Below, piece after piece: positions 37,691 to 48,241 of a stretch of 64,000 bases of DNA; the first letter of the stretch is position 1; every line of letters begins with the position of its first letter. The DNA is from Chiloscyllium plagiosum (Eukaryota). The stretch covers positions 18,435,159 to 18,499,158 of the forward strand of contig NC_057719.1 of the NCBI RefSeq assembly GCF_004010195.1, written 5' to 3'. Under the pieces are notes generated by a model, which was not told the origin of the DNA, searched no databases, and saw only the letters and a program-made list of their open reading frames with translations. A program made the translations under genes and the position numbers.

Positions 37691-37790
37691 GAGTTTTGGT
37701 TTCAAGTTTTATCTGAAAGATTGCAGAATGGATTTTCATTCCTGAGACAGATAGCATGTGTGAGGAAATTTCCTATTTTGCCACACCCAT

Positions 37791-38186
37791 TGTATAGAAT
37801 GGGAAAATAGGCTGGGGAGGTTAATAATGATATTTGACCACTGCATGATCTTGAATGAATCCTGTGAACATTTCTTTACGGGCCCACAATGGTTTTTCTG
37901 AAGCTGCTTTTCTGTACTGGCTGTTTGTTACACTGTATAAGAGAGAGACTGTTTCATTCCAAGTGTTGGATTTTACCTTGGGCCAGGATCGCGAATGGTG
38001 CTTGGAATGAACCTAATCCTCCAGGGTCACCGACAGGCAGGACGGCGAATTGCTATTGTCGAGTCTTCGCGTAATCACATTTAACCGAATCTGAAAAGAT
38101 GGACAGGTTGGACTGAAGGGTCTGTTTCCATGCCGTACATCTCTATGATTCTATAACTGTTTGGATACACTCTGCGATCCAAGATA
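37791..38186 (+). repeat. ERV 5' LTR (contains a ~58-bp CR1 tail insertion at ~38098-38155 and a deletion)
   Basis: Starts TGTATAGAAT, ends gatccaagaTA; 14 mismatches to the 3' LTR over the first 93 nt by manual count. Confidence 0.9.
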
Positions 38187-38190
38187 TTTT

Positions 38191-38211
38191 AGGTGAGGAA
38201 GATGGGATTCG
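38191..38211 (+). promoter_or_regulatory. Primer-binding site, complementary to tRNA-Ser(GCU)
   Basis: aggtgaggaagatgggattcg vs recalled complement TGGCGACGAGGATGGGATTCG (17/21), just after the 5' LTR. Confidence 0.65.
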
Positions 38212-38751
38212 GGGAAATGTTTAAGGGAAGGGAAAGGCAACCTGATGCTTCGGAGGCCTTCTGGAGTATTCCAGGATGGAATGCAGGTCTGTAACGAACT
38301 AGATAGCACAATTAGGACCCCCGCAAGAATGGGGGATGGTCACAAATGGAAAGGGAGAGACGGGGGTTATTCATAAAGGCTGCCGTACATGAGTGCTTGC
38401 GGGAAGTGGGCTTCCTCAAAAGCAAGGATAGTATATTGTAAGTGGGATGGATATTGTTAACAGCTTTGCGTTCGATGTGTAGGGAATTGGGAGAGTGCCA
38501 GGCCAATAACTGGCAACTTGAGGCCACATTGATGTGGTAGAACAATGTAACATCACCCTAACAGAAGCAGCTAAGACAATGCAGGAGAGAGCCAAGAGGA
38601 TGGAGGAGAAACAGAATCTGATAGTTTGCCATCTGGCAATGGTACAACAGTGAAAGAGGATAAAATTGCACAATTGGAAAGGTGGCCCAGTCAAAATGCG
38701 CACATTATTTACCTCACGATGGGACCCTGACCATTGGGATGGAGACATTTA

Positions 38752-41306
38752 TAGAGCCATAGAGTCATAGAGATGTACAGCATGGAAACAGACCCTTCGG
38801 TCCAAAACAACCATGTCTAACAGATATCCCAACCCAATCTAGTCCCACCTGCCAGCACCCGGCCCATATCCCTCCAAACCCTTCCTATTCATATACCCAT
38901 CCAAATGCCTCTTAACTGTTGCAATTGTACCAGCCTCCACCACTTCCTCTGGCAGCTCATTCCATACACGTACCACCTTCTGTGTGAAAAGGTTGCCCCA
39001 TAGGTCTCTTTTAAATCTTTCACCTCTCACCCTAAACCTATGCCCTCTAGTTCTGGACTCCCCCACCCCAGGGAAAAGACTTTGCCTATTTATCCTACCC
39101 ATACCCTTCATAATTTTGTAAACCTCTATCAGGTCACCCCTCAGCCTCTGACGCTCCAGGGAAAACAGCCCCAGCCTGTTCAGCCTCTCCCAAAGCTCAA
39201 ATCCTCTAACCCTGGCAACATCTTTGTAAATCTTTTCTGAACCCTTTCAAGTTTCACAACATCTTTCCGATAGGAAGGAGAACAGAATTGCATGCAATAT
39301 TCCAACAGCAGCCTAACCAATGTTCTGTACAGCCGCAACATGACATCTCAACTCCTGTACTCAATACTCTGATCAATAAAGGAAAGCATACCAAACGCCT
39401 TCTTCACTATCCTATCTACCTGTGACTCCACTTTCAAAGAGCTATGAACCTGCACTCCAAGGTCTCTTTGTTCAGCAACACTCCCTAGGACCTTACCATT
39501 AAGTCCTGCTAAGATTTGCTTTCCCAAAATGCAGCACCTCGCATTTATCTGAATTAAACTCCATCTGCCATTTCTCAGCCCATTGGCCCATCTGGTCCAG
39601 ATCCTGTTGTAATCTGAGGTAACCCTCTTCGCTGTCCACTACACCTCCAATTTTGGTGTCATCTGNNNNNNNNNNNNNNNNNNNNNNNNNNNNNNNNNNN
39701 NNNNNNNNNNNNNNNNNNNNNNNNNNNNNNNNNNNNNNNNNNNNNNNNNNNNNNNNNNNNNNNNNNNCCATGCACAAAGCCATGTTGACTATCCTGAATC
39801 AGTCCTTGCCTTTCCAAATACATGTACATCCTGTCCCTCAGGATTCCCTCCAACAACTTGCCCACCACCGATGTCAGGCTCACTGGTCTATAGTTTCCTG
39901 GCTTGTCCTTACCACCCGTCTTAAACAGTGGCACCACGTTAGCCAACCTCCAGTCTTCTGGCACCTCACCTGTGACTATCGATGATACAAATATCTCAGC
40001 AAGAGGCCTAGCAATCACTTCTCTAGCTTCCCACAGAGTTCTTGGGTACACCTCATCAGGTCCTGGGGATTTATCCACTTTTATGCATTTAAAGACATCC
40101 AGCACTTCCTCCTCTGTAATATAGACATTTTGCAAGATGTCACCACCTATTTCCCTCCAGTCTATATCTTCCATATCCTTTTCCACAGTACATACTAATT
40201 TTCTGCGGCTCCACACAAAGGCCGCCTTGCTGATCTTTGAGGGGCCCAATTCTCCACCTAGTTACTCTCTTGCCCTCAATATATATTTACAAAAACTCTT
40301 TGGATTCTCCTTAATTCTGTTTGCCAAAGCTATCTTATGTCCCCTTTTGTCCTCCTGATTTCCCTCTTAAGTATACTCCTACTGCATTTATACTCTTCTA
40401 AGGATTCTCTTGATCTATTCTGTCTATACCTGATATGTGCTTCCTTCTTTTTGGTAACCAAAACCTCAATTTCTCTAGTCATCCAGCATTCCCTACAACT
40501 ACCAGTCTTACCTTTCACACGAACAAGAATATACTGTTTCTAGACTCTTGCGATCTCTTTTCTGAAGGCTTCCCATTGTTCAGCCCCCCCTTTACCTGCG
40601 AACATCTGTCCCCAATCAGCTTTCAAAAGTTCTTTCCTAATACCGTCAAAATTGGCCTTTCTCCAATTTAGAACTTCAACTTTTAGATCTGGTCTAAACT
40701 TTTCCATCACTATTTTAAAACGAATAGAATTATGGTCGCTGGCCCCAAAGTGCTCCCCCACTGACACCTCAGTCACCTGCCCTGCCTTATTTCCCAAGAG
40801 TAGGTCAAGTTTTGCACCTTCTCTCATTGGTACATCCACATACTGAATCAGAAAATTGTCTTGTACACACTTAACAAATTCCTCTCCATCTAAACCCTTA
40901 ACACTATGGCAGTCCCAGTCTATGTTTGGAAAGTTAAAATCCCCTACCATAACCACCCTATTTTTCTTATAGATAGCTGAGAACTCCTTACAAGTTTGTT
41001 TCTCAATTTCCCTCTGACTATTAGGGGGTCTATAATACAATCCCAATAAGGTGATCGTCCCTTTCTTATTTTTCAGTTCCACCCAAATAACTTCCCTGGA
41101 TGTATTTCCGGGAATATCCTCCCTCAGCACAGCTGTAATGCTATCCCTTATCAAAAATGCCACTCTTCCTCCTCTCTTGCCTCCCTTTCAGTCCTTCCTG
41201 TAGCATTTGTATCCTGGAACATTATCCTGCCCATCCCTGAGCCACGTTTCTGTAATTGCTATGATATCCCAGTCCCATATTCCTAACCATGCCCTGAGTT
41301 CATCTG
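38752..41306 (-). mobile_element. Relatively young CR1/HER1 LINE, ORF2 from endonuclease start to tail (spans an assembly gap)
   Basis: ORF 40540..41163 (YYRPPN, MVGDFNFPNIDW, LDLLL, SDHN); 39659..40249 (KSPGPD, NYRPVSLTS, SQHGF); DDTKIGG; (catagagt)n tail. Confidence 0.95.
39666..39767. other. Assembly gap (N run)
   Basis: Run of N within the CR1 RT domain. Confidence 1.
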
Positions 41307-41331
41307 AAATAAATAAGTAGACATACAGGAG

Positions 41332-41405
41332 CTTCCCTGGATGGGCTTGACCCACAAACCTTCTGGTTAACAGCCGAATGGGCTAATCAATTGCGCCACA
41401 GAGAT
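41332..41405 (-). pseudogene. tRNA-Asn(GTT) pseudogene / retrocopy
   Basis: Reverse complement ATCTCTGTGGCGCAATTGATTAGCCCATTCGGCT-GTT-AACCAGAAGGTTTGTGGGTCAAGCCCATCCAGGGAAG; 74 nt; 62/74 to recalled vertebrate tRNA-Asn; mutated B-box; no CCA. Confidence 0.88.
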
Positions 41406-42439
41406 TGCCATTTAGCTTTCATCTGATTCAGAGTATGAATGGATGGATGGGTAAGGGGATGCTCCACCTTCAGAGCCATCCTCAGGAAAGGGACTAATAG
41501 CACGACCCTTAATAATGAATAAGGCAAAACAGGTAGGGAGACAAAATCCACAGAATTCGAGAATAGTGAGAGATGACTCTCTGTCTGAATTATAGGATTT
41601 GGGGTTGCGCTTCAAGCAGAATTCAGGTGAGCCCTTGGTTGACATGGGCATGCGACCAGAATGCTGCCCATATCATGCTGAGTGTCACAGAGTGAGGGAA
41701 TCTGGGAGCATTAAATGCTGAGCCACATGTGAATAGCGCTTTTAGAAATGTAGGGCATACTGGATTGTTGTGGAATGCACTGACACTACCAGTAGGAAAC
41801 AAGTACCCTCCCCCGAAAGATTGGGAAGGTGATGTTGAAAATTGGGAGGGCATACCAGAAGGTATAAAAAAGTGAGGGATTTGGCTATGCGAGCGGGTTA
41901 TATTCTCCACAGTTTCAGGGTCTACACCAGAAAGCTTTCACAGCTGGAATGAGGAACCGGCTAATACGAAGTGGTGTGGGCTGGATGAGAGGTGCCCTGT
42001 TAGCCCTATTAGGGCCAGCTCACGGACAGGCAGTGGGACAAGTGTGTTTGCTATTCAGACAGTTAGAGGATGGAGAGGCTGGTAAGCAAACACCTGAACA
42101 AGTGATAAACAAGGACAACAACGTGGAGATAGGATGGGTTCAAAGGTGAAATAAAACATTACCAGAAGAGAAATGTTCATAGCATTATTGAAAGCAGGAA
42201 TAGAGAGGAGTAGGATAGATGGAATATCTGTGGATGCCAGTACACTATATGGAAGATGCACGGCTCTGCAAAGGATAAGGAAGTAAGAAAGAACTAAATC
42301 AGATGTGGAGGGAGGAAAGGAAACCACAGTAACTGTAGCCTAGCCTGGAAGAGGCTGGGCAGTTGTAGCAAACCAGTTAGCCAATTGATTAGGGCTGGGG
42401 TTAGGACTCTGGGGTCTTTATAAGGTCGTTTGGTGAGAT

Positions 42440-45400
42440 GTCCAGAGACTTGAGGCCTCATGTCCCTGCCACCGTTTATTCGAAACATCACATTACTAGA
42501 CACTGGGGCAGAGGTTACTATTATACATGGCAATCTACATAGACATACAGTGCTCAAAATGACTACGAAAAGACTTTGTTGGGTGGTCACACCAGCAATT
42601 AGAACAAATATTCAAATAGCCTTGGGGAATGGACTCCCACGAGTAGTCCCAATACTGATATCCAACATAGCAGAGAAAGATATCAGTATGGACCCATTGA
42701 GAGGTACCACCTTGCAAACCCCACTGGGCAAATTCTCTTTGGTATATAAGCTGTGACAGTTACTTTTGGCAAGGCAGAATGGGAACCCCTCATTATCCCT
42801 CCGTCCACATGGGTAGTTTCAATGAAACAGTATCGTATTCCAGGAGGACACAATTGGGGATAATATGCAGGGCCTGTTAGCTGCAGGGATTGTGATACAT
42901 GCAGTATCTGTGTGCAATAGCCCTGTGTGGTCTGTGAAGAAACCTGATGGAAGTTGACGAATGATGGTTGTTGACTGCCAGCTTAGCAAATATGCTCCTC
43001 CACTGTCGGTGGCTGTGCCTGATGTGGACACTGTTATAGAAATATGACAGTGGTATGCTATTATTGATCTAGCAAATGCCTTTTTTCTGGATACCGGTAG
43101 CCCCTGGAATCACAAGCTCAGTTTGTTTTTATGTGGGAATGTTGCCAATATACTTTCTGTTGGCCACCACAAGGATACCTACATAATACAACCTTATGCC
43201 ATGGGCTAGTAGCAAGGGACTTAGATATGTATTCACCATCCCCCCCTGCCAGAAATTTATGTAGCACATTATATTGATGATATCTTGACCCATGGACCAA
43301 TGGAAACCACGATGGCAGAAGCTCTAGCCATACTGGTGCAACCTATGCGAGACGGAGACGGAAAGGGAAACCAAAAAAGATACAGGGACCAACACAATCA
43401 GAGCAGGTTTTAGGCATTCAGTTGACAAAAGGGGATAGAGCCATCCCTGAAAAACTACGGAATAAAATACAAAAAATTGGCTGTTCCAATTGGCAAGACC
43501 GAGGCACAGAAATTTATAGGTCTGCTTGGATATTGGTGCAGACATATTCCTCACATAACTACATTACTAAGACCTTTACATGCCATTACTTGAAAGAAAG
43601 CTCAATTGAACAACAGGAAGCATTTCAGGCTGCTAAAAGAGGCCGTAGAATTGGTGCTGCCCCTGGCTTCTCAGAATACTGGCTTAGCCTTTGAATTACA
43701 AGTATCAGTATTACAAGATGTAACCACGTGGAGCTTATGGCAGAGACAAAAGGGGAAATCAATACCTTTGGGAGTCTGGTCTAGAAAAGTGACTGAGGCA
43801 GCTATGCATTACACAGCATTTGAAAAACAACTTCTGGCCAGCTACTGGGCCCTGTAGTCATAGAGTCATAGAGATGTACAGCATAGAAACAGACCTTCGG
43901 TCCAACCTGTCCACACCGACCAGATACCCCCCTAGTAGAAACTCAATGGTAGACGAGTGAGGACGCAGTGCTCTTCAGACTTGAGTTATCCATTCTGATA
44001 TGCTTGTTACCTGACATTGTGATCCACCAGGCCAGTAGAGCCTAATACAGCTCCACTGTAAAATGGAAATGGTACATAGTGATCCGAGAAAGGAAAAGAA
44101 GGGGATGCCAAACTCCATGAGTAAATAGCTGAATACTCACCAGGTGAACAATCTCCGAGTTCCACCTGGCCATACCTGCATCTCCTGTTCAATGGGGCAT
44201 TCCATTCGAACAACTGTCTGAAGATGCTCGTCACTGTGCTTGGTTCACTGATGGATCAGCCACCTGGAAGAGTGGCCAGAGGCAAGCAGCTGTGTTTAAT
44301 GCCTCCACACAAACGGTTATGAATAGTGAAGGAGATGGGGGATTGAGCCAATGAGCCGAATTAGCAGCTAGAGGAGGAGAGTCAGTTTATACTAACTTGT
44401 GGCCATAAAATGGCTGTATGGATGTCAACCTGGCAGTCACATGACTGGAAGATTGCTGGAAGGCCCCTGTGGGGAACAGAACTATGGAAACAAATATGGG
44501 TGAAGGCACAGTGCGTGGAAATCATTGTGTATCATTTTGCTGCCCAAATGAAGGATGGTTTGGAATCTGCTAACCACAGCAATATTGTGGATGGAATAGT
44601 AAATGCAGAACAGTTGAAGGTGCATCTGAAGAGTTCCACACTGGAAAATGGGCTCATGAAAAATCAGACATTTAGGGTATCAAGGCACTGTGCAATGGGC
44701 AAGAGATCAAGGTTTGCACTTAAGCACTGATCTGTGAAAGAACGCATTGGCAGTGTAAAATATGCCAAAAGGTAAACGTGTGTCACTGCCGATGAAGCCA
44801 ATGGCATAAATCAAACAAGAAAATCAGCCTGCTCAAATCTGGCAGATTGACCTCTACAACAATGATATCAATATCTGTTAACTGTCGTGGACACTTCCTC
44901 TGGGCTCATGTTAGCTCTCCCGACAACCAAAGAAAATTAGAGGAATAGTGGTAAAGGCCGAGAACAGTTGATATCCTACCATGGTGAACCATCAGAAATA
45001 CAATCAGATAACGTCTCACACTTTATAGGTCAACAGGTGTAGCAATCAGCTGCAAACAGTAAGATACATTGGATGTTCCACAATTCTTACTACCATCAAG
45101 CAGCTGGCCTTGTAGAATGAATGAATGGGTTATTAAAACAATAAATTAAATTATTGACCTCTAATCATACATTACAGGTGTGGCTCAAAGCGCTGATATA
45201 ATCTGAACAATCAGCCTCTGAAAGGAGGGATACCCATGAGTAGAATGTTTGAAGGAGGTAACTAGTCACAGCCTCCCAATAAACATGCAACATCCAATGA
45301 TCTTTGTGCAGGGGGAGGAATGCGGGTATACCACCCACAACACCCTTCTAAGTCTAGTGAGATACTTGCCTGTGGACAAGGTGATACCTACTGGATATTG

Positions 45401-45460
45401 ATAATGGGACAGGAAGTACAACAGTGTATAGACACGGGGAAGCTAACAAAAAGAGAGTGA
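42440..45460 (+). pseudogene. pol: ERV pro-pol remnant (PR-RT-RH-IN)
   Basis: LLDTGAEVTIIHG (~42493); QYRIPGG; NSPVWSVKKPDGS; IIDLANAFF; YIDD (43270-43281); YTAFEKQLLASYWAL; WFTDGSA; RPLWGTELWKQI; CKIC; QIWQID; IQSDN; QAAGLVE*MNGLLK. Confidence 0.9.
43855..43930 (-). mobile_element. Short CR1 3'-tail insertion within pol
   Basis: tagtcatagagtcatagagatgtacagcatagaaacagacc interrupts YWAL...VET. Confidence 0.85.
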
Positions 45461-45509
45461 GTTGTCAAAGATTATACCCTGAAAAGATATGATTTCTTCA
45501 CTGAACCAT

Positions 45510-47730
45510 GCCGATTGATTATGGATAGATGCTGCTGTGGATGACTTGCCAGTTGACATGGACAATGCATTTCCATGACTGATGTGTGGATATGGTGTGG
45601 ACAGTCCAAGAGACTAACAGAGTGCAGGACAATTTTACTTGTCACCCAGGACTTCGATGTGTCATCGGATACTATGTTACAGGTACGGCATGTTGGTTAT
45701 GGGTAGCATTGGAACAGAGTATGTTTACCGTGTCTAAAGGATACACAGTACAACTGCAAACTGCATAGCAAGCAGAAATGGCTTATAAGATATACAATAC
45801 AACTACACAGTTAATGAAAATAACCTGATTGTCATACAGGGTAAAGTTCAATACAAATGTACCGCAAAGGGTAAAAGAGACAAGGGTAAAAGGGTAAAAG
45901 GGTAAAAGAGCAGCACGGTGACACAGTGGTTAGCACTGCTGCCTCACAGCGCCAGAGACCTGGGTTCAATTCCCGCCTCAGGCGACTGACTGTGTGGAGT
46001 TTGCACATTCTCCCCGTGTCTGCGTGGGTTTCCTCCGGTGCTCCGGTTTCCTCCCACAGTCCAAAGATGTGCAGGTCAGGTGAATTGGCCATGCTAAATT
46101 GCCCGTACTGTTAGGTAAGGGGTAGATGTGTAGGGGTATGGGTGGGTGGCGCTTCGGCAGGGCGGTGTGGACTTGTTGGGCCGAAGGGCCTGTTTCCACA
46201 CTGTAAGTAATCTATTCTAATCTAAAGGACAATAAAAACCGTGTTAATTGCAGATCAATGGTATGGTTGTACCAACGCATCTGAAATAGTCAATGGGACA
46301 TAGATGATGGCCATATGGTCAGACCAGAAAACTAATCAACAGCAATTAGGGATGGCCCATGTTCAACGCCTCTACTCAACATGCACCAAAGTATTTGCAT
46401 CTCAAAATGTACTTAATCTCATGATATGGGTACAATATGAGTCAAAACCCGACGGGTGTAAAATCATACCTTTAGTTACGTGACTGCAAAAGACCAAGCT
46501 AAAGCAGGGCTTGGTACAATATTAGGAGGGCTAGGAACAGGCATTGGAGCATCGAATGCCATGCCTATTGAGACCTTACAAAACAAGATACAAAAGGTGG
46601 GTATCCTGATTGGAAATGCCATTAGGTCACAAAATGCTTGGGACAGAGGGTTAAATGGAAATATGTTATCTGGTTGGTTAATGCGATGGGAGTAACTAAA
46701 TAGAACGGAATGGGAATCATTTTACATGTCCCTATAACAGAATAGTTTCAATACTTATACGGTTTGGACGTTTCATGAAATTTCACATCCACTGTTCAGA
46801 GCAGAATTGAAACAAATAGCTCTGTCAGAATACAGTGGTAGTTAGGTGAACTTTTTCAAGTTTGCCAGATAACAATTGCAGATCAATCCCAATTTGCAAT
46901 ATACTACCTGTATTACAAAAGGGTGTAATTTTACGATGAGGATTATTAATGCTACCCATGCACAGAATTGGTGTAACTTTATTACTGTCCCTCATCTGTT
47001 TGGCCAGCAATTGTGGCTCCCAGAGATGAGAGGGAAGTAGATTGATGAGAGGAATCAAACTCACTGTGGGATTGATTGTCAGGAGTGGCCATTTGGTATG
47101 GTATGCCTACTCCACACCCCAGGATTTGAACAATACTCCCTTGAACATTCTGCAGGAACATGCACATAGCACTTATTCCATATAATTTCACAGTTATTCA
47201 TGAGACAAGACAAAAGCAGACTTGTATTACCAGTCCCCGCACCATTTATTTAGATGGCATCTGAAAGGATCCTCCAGTTAGTCATTATTATAAGGATATA
47301 TACACTAACTATGATCCCAAGTAGACAGATCAAATCAATTAGGGAAATGTGAAGATGTACAACATTATTGTACCATCTTTGGGGTGCAGAACCTTCCACC
47401 AGTTGTCAACTTGACTTAGTTGGAGCGCTTTCTCCATGAAAATGCTCATATTAGTCAGGAACTGACGACAAGGGGGTGAAATATACATTGAATGAAACTT
47501 GCTATGTCATATGCGGATGGACAGTTAACATGACTTGCTGATTCCATCACGGCCTTGACCATACATCACTGGTGGGATATATTTCGGGGTAGGTCCCCAA
47601 AGGCCATCATTAATTTGATGATTCACCCTATTGTTATTGTATTCGTATTGATGACAGTTATTTTCACTGTAGTTTTACTTGTCTGGTGTTAGTTCTATAC
47701 ATTTATTATATATTCCTGCGAGGCTATCAC
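45510..47730 (+). pseudogene. env: ERV env-like remnant
   Basis: Lies between integrase and PPT; Gly-rich hydrophobic GLGTILGGLGTGIGASN plus heptad-like IETLQNKIQKV (ORF 46480..46695); IHHWWDIF...HPIVIVFVLMTVIFTVVLLVWC membrane anchor at 47561-47692. Confidence 0.7.
45908..46226 (+). mobile_element. Young HE1-type SINE inserted in env
   Basis: Near-identical to 52611-52920 and 58147-58476; tRNA-like head and (tctaa)n tail. Confidence 0.92.
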
Positions 47731-47779
47731 TGATTTGTGCCTGCATTTTCAATCGTAACATGCGCTGTCAAATATCACC

Positions 47780-47789
47780 GGGGGTGGAT
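47780..47789 (+). promoter_or_regulatory. Polypurine tract
   Basis: gggggtggat directly before the 3' LTR TG, like the recalled ERV-L GGGGTGGA PPT. Confidence 0.8.
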
Positions 47790-48241
47790 TGTATAGAATG
47801 AGAAAATAGGTTGGGAAGGTAAATGATGATATGCGACAGCTGCATGACCCTGAATGAATCCTATGAATATTCCTTTACGGGCTGAAGACAACGGCAGCAG
47901 CTTGTTTTACTGTAGCTGTTTCTGTACTGCCTGTTTGTTATACTGTATAAGAGAGAGAGAGTTTTGTTCCAAGAGTTGGACTTTACCTCAGACTGGGATG
48001 GTGAACAGTACCAGGAACAAACCTAAGCCTCCAGACCAGCCGTCATCCAAGTGGCCCCCGACCGACAGAAGGGCCTAAGACTCATTGCTTTTTTCTCCTT
48101 GCTTTTCAATTTATTATTATTATCATTATTATTACTTAATAAACATCCACATTTAAGCAAATCGCTGTTGTCGAATCTTCACGTAACCACATTTAACCGA
48201 ATCAAAAAGAACTGTTTGGAGATCCTCTGTGATCCAAGACA
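47790..48241 (+). repeat. ERV 3' LTR
   Basis: TGTATAGAAT...gatccaagaCA; TATA-like tataag near 47946; AATAAA at 48138-48143; followed by cccaa. Confidence 0.9.

What the first reader, a model, noticed from the sequence alone, without database searches (positions are those of the whole stretch)
38746..41414. Pre-tRNA-Asn fused to a CR1 LINE, inserted as one TSD-bounded unit
Seen on the minus strand: a 3-nt leader (41406-41408), a full 74-nt tRNA-Asn(GTT) lacking CCA (41332-41405), and a 25-nt T-rich trailer (41307-41331). CR1 ORF2 follows, starting at the endonuclease N-terminus (DELRAWLG...) and running to the tail. CATTTA flanks the whole unit (38746-38751, 41409-41414), and removing the unit restores ERV gag in frame (WDGDI*LSSDSEYEW). 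Known: Pol III RNA-LINE chimeras such as U6-L1 form during retrotransposition, and SINEs are tRNA heads on LINE tails. Inference: this is either a CR1 template switch onto an unprocessed pre-tRNA, or a copy of a tRNA-promoted CR1 source locus (a SINE-birth intermediate). The tRNA looks more diverged (12/74) than the CR1 ORFs, suggesting a variant tRNA locus as donor.
Basis: partly seen in the sequence, partly recalled or inferred. Interest (0 to 1): 0.78.

Follow-up and report, generated by a model that had tools for sequence, protein, structure and literature searches.

The report
Unprocessed tRNA captured on CR1 retrotransposon
A dead copy of an asparagine tRNA with its unprocessed trailer sits fused to the front of a long CR1 jumping-gene copy inside one duplicated target site, one of many separate small-RNA fusions in this genome, likely made when the copying enzyme jumped from one RNA to another, and not a spreading new element.

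Summary
The unit is real. The decayed tRNA-Asn, the CR1 ORF2 and the 6-bp repeat are where stated. 12 of 20 rows from other copies of the host LTR element show the hexamer once, and none carries the tRNA. Both junctions appear in read contigs of this organism and of a related one.

Corrections: only 14 to 17 of the 25 'trailer' bases are tRNA trailer; the T-rich part is CR1. The 'variant donor' idea has little support.

The same tRNA plus trailer occurs at 7 other loci, always fused to a SINE with a CR1-type tail, with different junctions. 13 of 30 U6 copies are fused the same way, and one locus reads U6 + pre-tRNA-Lys + CR1. The tRNA-CR1 junction is single-copy, the endonuclease start is deleted, and T-runs stand between the tRNA and the tail, so this is not a mobile family.

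Best reading: a one-off template-switch chimera, a variant of the known U6/LINE class, with RNA ligation as the main rival. The scan has noted this class before, here and in other genomes.

The parts
41409..41414 (.). Target-site duplication, copy at the 5' end of the unit
   Evidence: single in other host copies
41406..41408 (-). 3 bases between TSD and tRNA: pre-tRNA leader or untemplated bases (unresolved)
   Evidence: sequence; no donor found
41332..41405 (-). Decayed whole tRNA-Asn(GTT), no CCA; changes at positions 17, 19 (A-box region) and 55, 58 (B-box region)
   Evidence: box positions from established knowledge
41318..41331 (-). 14-nt pre-tRNA 3' trailer shared with 7 SINE-fused copies elsewhere
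41315..41317 (-). Junction, 3 bases; likely a remnant of the oligo-U end (sibling copies show 0 to 5 T here)
   Evidence: inference
38752..41314 (-). 5'-truncated CR1-type LINE, from the first endonuclease strand to the tail; about 2.8 kb once the gap is sized; 26-nt deletion near 41305-41307; several stops and frameshifts; 5.1% and 3.7% non-CpG divergence of the two halves from other copies
39666..39767 (.). Assembly gap of 102 N; 5 of 20 other copies give 338-350 nt and one gives 357 nt between the same two points
38746..38751 (.). Target-site duplication, copy at the tail end
37788..48238 (+). Old host LTR retroelement (LTRs about 37788-38184 and 47787-48238, 77-87% alike in aligned pieces; RNase H-like frame 44365-44727); about 20 more copies found

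Best explanation
This is a single retrotransposition event that placed a whole tRNA-Asn with its trailer on the 5' end of a truncated CR1 copy inside one 6-bp target duplication, likely because the CR1 reverse transcriptase jumped from its own RNA onto the U-tailed 3' end of an unprocessed tRNA. Shown: one unit between two copies of a hexamer that is single in other host copies; sense orientation; trailer present and CCA absent; the same head on a different partner at 7 other loci. Inferred: nicking inside the old LTR element, priming at the CR1 tail, copying of about 2.8 kb, a jump to the pre-tRNA, copying to its 5' end, and sealing. The product never spread; the tRNA has decayed and the ORF is broken. 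Pol III transcripts that end in oligo-U (pre-tRNAs, U6) appear to be routine second templates for this LINE/SINE machinery in this genome.
For: TSD and empty sites. Junctions present in independent read contigs, including organism B. The same tRNA plus 14-nt trailer at 6 more loci by pattern, control 0, and a seventh, more diverged one. All are followed by the same SINE, with 0, 3, 4, 5, about 8 and 77 bases between trailer and SINE and tRNA starts at positions 1, 8, 12, 28, 29, 31 or only the last 10 or so bases. The SINE parts do not form one clade (AU p 0.029, 7 rows against 48). The SINE's 3' end aligns with the CR1 3' end. U6: 12 of 30 fetched loci (48 matches) run into that SINE and 1 into CR1, against a background of 0.003-0.004 SINE pieces per 60 nt per strand. 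Other tRNAs sit ahead of the SINE too (3 of 10 submitted pattern hits pass Rfam at the matched place). L162 carries a 9-nt leader and a trailer like those of the clustered tRNA-Asn genes. A three-part U6 + 3 nt + tRNA-Lys + trailer-TTT + CR1 copy exists. RtcB ligation needs a 2',3'-cyclic phosphate and a 5'-OH (PMC6789731, passages), whereas fresh Pol III ends are UUU-OH and 5'-triphosphate (established knowledge, not tested).
Against: The donor gene (this trailer followed by a terminator and unique flanks) was not found in the assembly, so the leader is unverified. DNA alone cannot separate template switching from RNA ligation. My scan found no convincing TSD directly around the SINE-fused siblings (one 9-mer candidate for L085 lies beyond extra sequence) or around the three-part copy. 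The tRNA is somewhat more diverged than the CR1 (p 0.054 overall; about 0.008 against the least diverged first 600 nt). The siblings' SINE parts are slightly closer to each other (0.132) than to others (0.150). No record spans the N gap.
Confidence: 0.64

Rival explanations
1. RNA ligation first: a pre-tRNA end was ligated (RtcB-type) to a cleaved CR1 RNA, and the joined RNA was then retrotransposed in one piece, as shown for U6/L1.
For: Same DNA product expected. Ligation is demonstrated for U6/L1 (PMC6789731, passages). U6 fusions are common in this genome. An earlier scan note claims U6 joined at ribozyme cuts in this genome (e1-8159350, not tested by me).
Against: Primary Pol III ends are not RtcB substrates (established knowledge). 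Most SINE partners begin at or near their first base, where a 5'-triphosphate is expected. In the three-part copy U6 joins 3 nt ahead of a whole tRNA.
Confidence: 0.18
2. Copy of a mobile source locus in which a tRNA-Asn head drives or rides with CR1 or the SINE (a SINE-birth intermediate).
For: Eight loci share one trailer. One other CR1 copy (L007/L093/L103) has the same 26-nt deletion and matches up to 41321. Within-family SINE distance is a little lower.
Against: The tRNA-CR1 junction is single among the hits. L007 has ordinary CR1 upstream and no tRNA, and shares 12 of 70 and 1 of 32 of the window's private CR1 sites; the first is the highest count among the copies, the second among the lowest. 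Junctions differ among the siblings and one clade is rejected. T-runs would stop Pol III about 250 nt in, far from the tail (not checked in other copies). Searches score only the best candidates, so counts are lower bounds.
Confidence: 0.08
3. Two steps: a stand-alone pre-tRNA retrocopy came first and the CR1 later inserted exactly at its 3' end, or DNA-level recombination or gene conversion joined them.
For: The tRNA is somewhat more diverged than the CR1.
Against: One TSD bounds both parts and no second duplication is seen. The CR1 would have to land on one exact base. None of the 8 copies of this trailer stands alone. Organism B has both parts.
Confidence: 0.08
4. Assembly artefact: the gap or a junction joins unrelated sequences.
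For: A 102-N gap inside a high-copy repeat; no record spans the whole unit.
Against: Both outer junctions are bridged in independent runs. The halves are collinear, do not overlap, have similar divergence and leave room for about 345 nt. The private TSD letter is on both sides.
Confidence: 0.02

Closest known systems
U6/LINE and U6/SINE chimeric retrocopies (U6-L1; U6-L2 and U6-Mon-1 in platypus; U6-L1/L2/RTEX and U6-AnolisSINE2 in anole; one unresolved U6-CR1 in turkey). Doucet et al. 2015, PMC4476161, section 10 read whole plus passages
   Same: Pol III RNA in sense at the 5' end of a truncated LINE or its SINE; one short TSD; heads often 5'-truncated; works with stringent LINEs.
   Different: Here the head is a whole pre-tRNA with trailer, and the partner is about 2.8 kb of CR1 with a resolved TSD and empty sites.
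tRNA/LINE-1 chimeras in human, 21 loci. PMC11838501, section 22 read whole plus passages; its Supplementary Table 3 was not seen
   Same: tRNA and LINE inserted together within one TSD.
   Different: Those are mostly tRNA halves in antisense, ascribed to twin priming. This one is whole, in sense, with an unprocessed trailer, on CR1.
PittSINE origin model: template switch from a CR1-tailed SINE RNA to tRNA-Asp. Suh et al. 2017, PMC5729268, 3 passages; also PMC5786205, 5 passages
   Same: Proposes exactly a TSD-flanked tRNA-CR1 chimera made by template switching.
   Different: There the event is inferred and the product spread as a short SINE. Here single products are seen directly, and this one is long, broken and did not spread.
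Pre-tRNA and tailless retropseudogenes made by L1 (Schmitz et al. 2004; not seen, known only from passages of PMC4476161)
   Same: Unprocessed tRNA used as a template by LINE machinery.
   Different: Those stand alone; this one is fused to the LINE.
RtcB-ligated U6/L1 RNA. Moldovan et al. 2019, PMC6789731, 12 passages
   Same: Same final DNA structure.
   Different: Needs a cyclic-phosphate end that primary pre-tRNAs are not known to carry.

Membership tests
Small-RNA/LINE chimeric retrocopy | Small RNA copy directly 5' of a 5'-truncated LINE, same orientation | tested here: met
Small-RNA/LINE chimeric retrocopy | One TSD around both parts; empty site has one copy | tested here: met
Small-RNA/LINE chimeric retrocopy | Head ends at the RNA's natural 3' end (oligo-U) | tested here: inconclusive
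   The trailer is whole; the 3 junction bases are ambiguous; siblings show 0-5 T; donor gene not found
Small-RNA/LINE chimeric retrocopy | Each copy formed independently (different junctions) | tested here: met
   AU p 0.029 is modest
Small-RNA/LINE chimeric retrocopy | Joining during reverse transcription (template switch) versus earlier ligation | not testable with these tools
   needs a cell or biochemical assay
tRNA-derived SINE family | Many dispersed copies with one head-tail junction | tested here: not met
   (lower-bound searches)
tRNA-derived SINE family | Short; Pol III can read from head to tail | tested here: not met
   about 2.9 kb; at least 8 T-runs; changes in both box regions
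Functional tRNA gene | Intact cloverleaf and promoter boxes | tested here: not met
CR1-clade LINE | APE endonuclease followed by RT in ORF2; short-repeat tail | tested here: met
   (RT hit weak; most of it lies in or near the gap)
CR1-clade LINE | RT groups with CR1 rather than L2 or other clades in a tree | not tested
HE1 SINE (partner at sibling loci) | Sequence match to the published HE1 consensus | not tested
   label recalled and used in earlier scan notes; PMC2911107 passages only state that HE1 is a tRNA-derived SINE also found in elasmobranchs
Endogenous retrovirus (host) | Paired LTRs | tested here: met
Endogenous retrovirus (host) | Retroviral gag/pol, as opposed to Gypsy-type | tested here: inconclusive
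   RNase H-like frame by features 0.92; no Pfam hit for three host frames; PDB and Atlas uninformative

The most novel reading that the evidence does not exclude
The LINE machinery of this genome routinely performs serial jumps onto nascent, U-tailed Pol III transcripts (pre-tRNAs of several isotypes, U6, even U6 then pre-tRNA then CR1). The genome would thus hold a countable fossil series of SINE-head acquisition events, showing that reverse transcription happens in the nucleus beside Pol III genes and by a route that does not need RtcB, with some donor tRNA loci captured far more often than others.
Probability: 0.35. Interest if true: 0.62.

Novelty: new variant of a known kind. Interest (0 to 1): 0.4.

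Why it matters
SINE birth by adding a tRNA head to a LINE tail is usually inferred from finished families. Here the raw products can be counted. One donor trailer was captured at least 8 times on two partners, which makes the template-switch versus ligation question testable on a head that lacks U6's cyclic phosphate. This locus itself is a dead, one-off copy. It is also a clean presence/absence marker shared by organisms A and B. The class has been noted repeatedly by this scan, so the single locus adds little beyond its long CR1 partner, clean TSD and empty-site proof.

Tried and rejected
Donor gene: four own-genome searches found no copy of this trailer on a gene-like locus. L033/L152 has a similar but different trailer. 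A look for the donor in read data could not be made, so that question is open.

L156 and L202 looked like a second tRNA-Asn-CR1 junction but are duplicated gene-like copies that share flanks on both sides, with an internal CR1 piece; rejected.

A CR1 sub-lineage with the 26-nt deletion: only 2 copies at up to 1 mismatch; independent deletion at a 2-base microhomology or a rare shared source remain open.

A fixed CR1 break point: the U6/tRNA-Lys copy joins CR1 about 630 nt further in than the window's copy, and the U6-CR1 copy joins near the tail. A pattern for other tRNAs at the tRNA-Lys join site found only that locus, and its tRNA-trailer junction is single.

Expression: no RNA holder listed; this is no evidence either way. 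Empty alleles in reads: none among the joints shown, but 1555 were hidden.

Host classification by Pfam, PDB and Atlas was inconclusive. The weak Rfam hits to CPEB3 and Ocean-VII (E 0.8-0.9) are chance.

Literature: searches listed no paper describing whole sense pre-tRNA-plus-trailer fusions on CR1. PMC13343379 has no occurrence of 'tRNA'. The library lacks most subscription papers, and no supplements were read.
Full report
Observation. On the minus strand the window reads: hexamer (41409-41414), 3 bases, a tRNA-like 74-mer (41332-41405), a short trailer, LINE sequence to a short-repeat tail at 38752, and the hexamer again (38746-38751). Rfam matches the whole tRNA model at 25.7 bits, under its cut-off of 29, and ARAGORN finds no tRNA in the window. 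Against an intact genomic tRNA-Asn(GTT) (L043) it differs at 12 of 74 positions, 6 of them at CpG sites, and changes fall in both promoter-box regions. It is a pseudogene. The LINE part has endonuclease Pfam hits and a weak RVT_1 hit. The label CR1 was not tested by a tree.

One insertion. The host is an old LTR element with LTRs 77-87% alike in aligned pieces and an RNase H-like frame. Whether it is an ERV and whether the site lies in gag was not established. A search with the right flank gave 24 other loci. Each flank was compared with them separately. 20 rows held both flanks; 12 of them (11 elements) overlapped by exactly 6 bases, 8 gave other offsets, and none of the 24 matched the tRNA. 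The window's hexamer carries a private letter in both repeats, as expected if the site was duplicated at insertion. Read contigs bridge host-tRNA-CR1 in runs X2 and X3 (organism A, two studies; 0 and 1 differences) and X9 (organism B; 11 differences in 203), and bridge the tail junction in X2 and X9. X14 showed flank pieces only among those listed. The insertion therefore predates the split of A and B. No record spans the N gap. In other CR1 copies the two halves are collinear; 6 of 20 give 338-357 nt between them, and the rest are gapped, rearranged or truncated. The halves are 5.1% and 3.7% diverged at non-CpG sites.

Anatomy corrected. Most of the 29 other CR1 loci read ...ATTTATTTCA, 26 more bases, then GATGAACTC. 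Only one other copy has that deletion. The true trailer is 14 bases (41318-41331), plus 3 ambiguous bases.

A recurring class. A pattern of tRNA end plus trailer matched 7 places including the window, with 0 for the control; an eighth, more diverged one came. All 7 others run into the same SINE of about 315 nt, whose 3' end aligns with the CR1 3' end (the name HE1 is recalled, not tested). Their tRNA starts and junctions all differ. A tree rejects one clade for their SINE parts (p-AU 0.029), although they are slightly closer to each other (0.132) than to other copies (0.150). I found no convincing TSDs directly around them. Among 54 distinct tRNA-Asn-like ends in my loci (not a random sample, since some were fetched by patterns that require the SINE), 15 are followed by the SINE and 3 by CR1; two of those three are duplicated gene-like loci. 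Of 30 U6 loci fetched from 48 matches, 12 run into the SINE, 1 into CR1, and 1 into a whole tRNA and then CR1. Background is 0.003-0.004 per 60 nt per strand. A general T-arm pattern gave 15 hits ahead of the SINE; 3 of the 10 submitted pass Rfam at the matched place, and one further hit is the known L087. L162 keeps a 9-nt leader and a trailer like those of the clustered genes, which is direct sign of a precursor template.

Donor and divergence. No gene-like locus with this trailer was found, so the 3-nt leader is unverified. At the window's 12 changed positions, six siblings show the standard base in 47 of 55 covered cells and the window's base in 5, so the donor was most likely a standard tRNA-Asn. 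The non-CpG excess in the window's tRNA is borderline (p 0.054; about 0.008 against the first 600 nt of CR1) and remains a small unexplained point.

Mechanism. Most likely, target-primed reverse transcription of CR1 RNA ran about 2.8 kb, then jumped to the oligo-U end of a pre-tRNA and copied it to its 5' end (inferred; 0.64). RNA ligation gives the same DNA and is proven for U6/L1, but it needs a cyclic-phosphate 3' end and a 5'-OH (PMC6789731, passages). Primary Pol III transcripts are not known to have these ends (my own knowledge), and most SINE partners begin at their first bases (0.18). A mobile tRNA-headed source is unlikely: the junction is single among the hits, the ORF is broken, and T-runs begin at 41157, far from the tail (0.08). 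A two-step origin needs an exact landing (0.08).

Comparison. U6 fusions with L1, L2, RTE and their SINEs, and one unresolved U6-CR1 case, are published (PMC4476161, section 10 whole). tRNA/L1 chimeras are published but are mostly antisense halves (PMC11838501, section 22 whole; supplement not seen). A tRNA-CR1 chimera by template switching is the proposed origin of PittSINE (PMC5729268, passages). My searches listed no description of whole sense pre-tRNA-plus-trailer heads on CR1, but the library is incomplete. Earlier scan notes report the same class in this genome and others. They are unchecked, came after my own tests, and agree with them.

Verdict. A real, one-off, dead chimeric retrocopy and a new variant of a known kind. 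Interest 0.4, carried by the class more than by this locus.

Noticed in passing
L124/L190, G000:C17 about 47,233,470-47,236,161, minus strand: Three-part chimera: whole U6 (109.5 bits) + AAA + whole tRNA-Lys-like gene (49.4 bits; isotype read by eye) + trailer ending TTT + about 2.5 kb of the same CR1 family to its tail. No TSD seen; junction single-copy.
   Followed up: partly
L180:699-771 and 1338-1410; L181:1330-1403 and 1433-1522: Two tRNAs in tandem on the same strand ahead of the SINE: double capture, read-through of a tRNA cluster, or SINE insertion in place.
   Followed up: no
L121 (G000:C25:39188708-39188814): U6-SINE chimera directly preceded by a SINE-head fragment.
   Followed up: no
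L088: 77 unexplained bases between the tRNA trailer and the SINE; possibly a third template.
   Followed up: no
L007/L093/L103 (G000:C24 about 35.58 Mb): The only other CR1 copy found with the same 26-nt deletion at the endonuclease start; no tRNA head.
   Followed up: partly
L035, L037, L038, L040, L041, L044-L051 (mostly small unplaced contigs): A large family of variant tRNA-Asn genes with shared flanks, apparently arrayed. L035 shares 5 of the window tRNA's 12 differences (read by eye) but has another trailer.
   Followed up: partly
L123, L140: U6 copies followed by the same unrelated repeat end, which also recurs in the window (D6/D8); possibly chimeras with a second LINE/SINE system.
   Followed up: no
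window 43861-43907 and 45913-46220: A second CR1-type tail and a full SINE copy are also inserted inside the same host LTR element.
   Followed up: no
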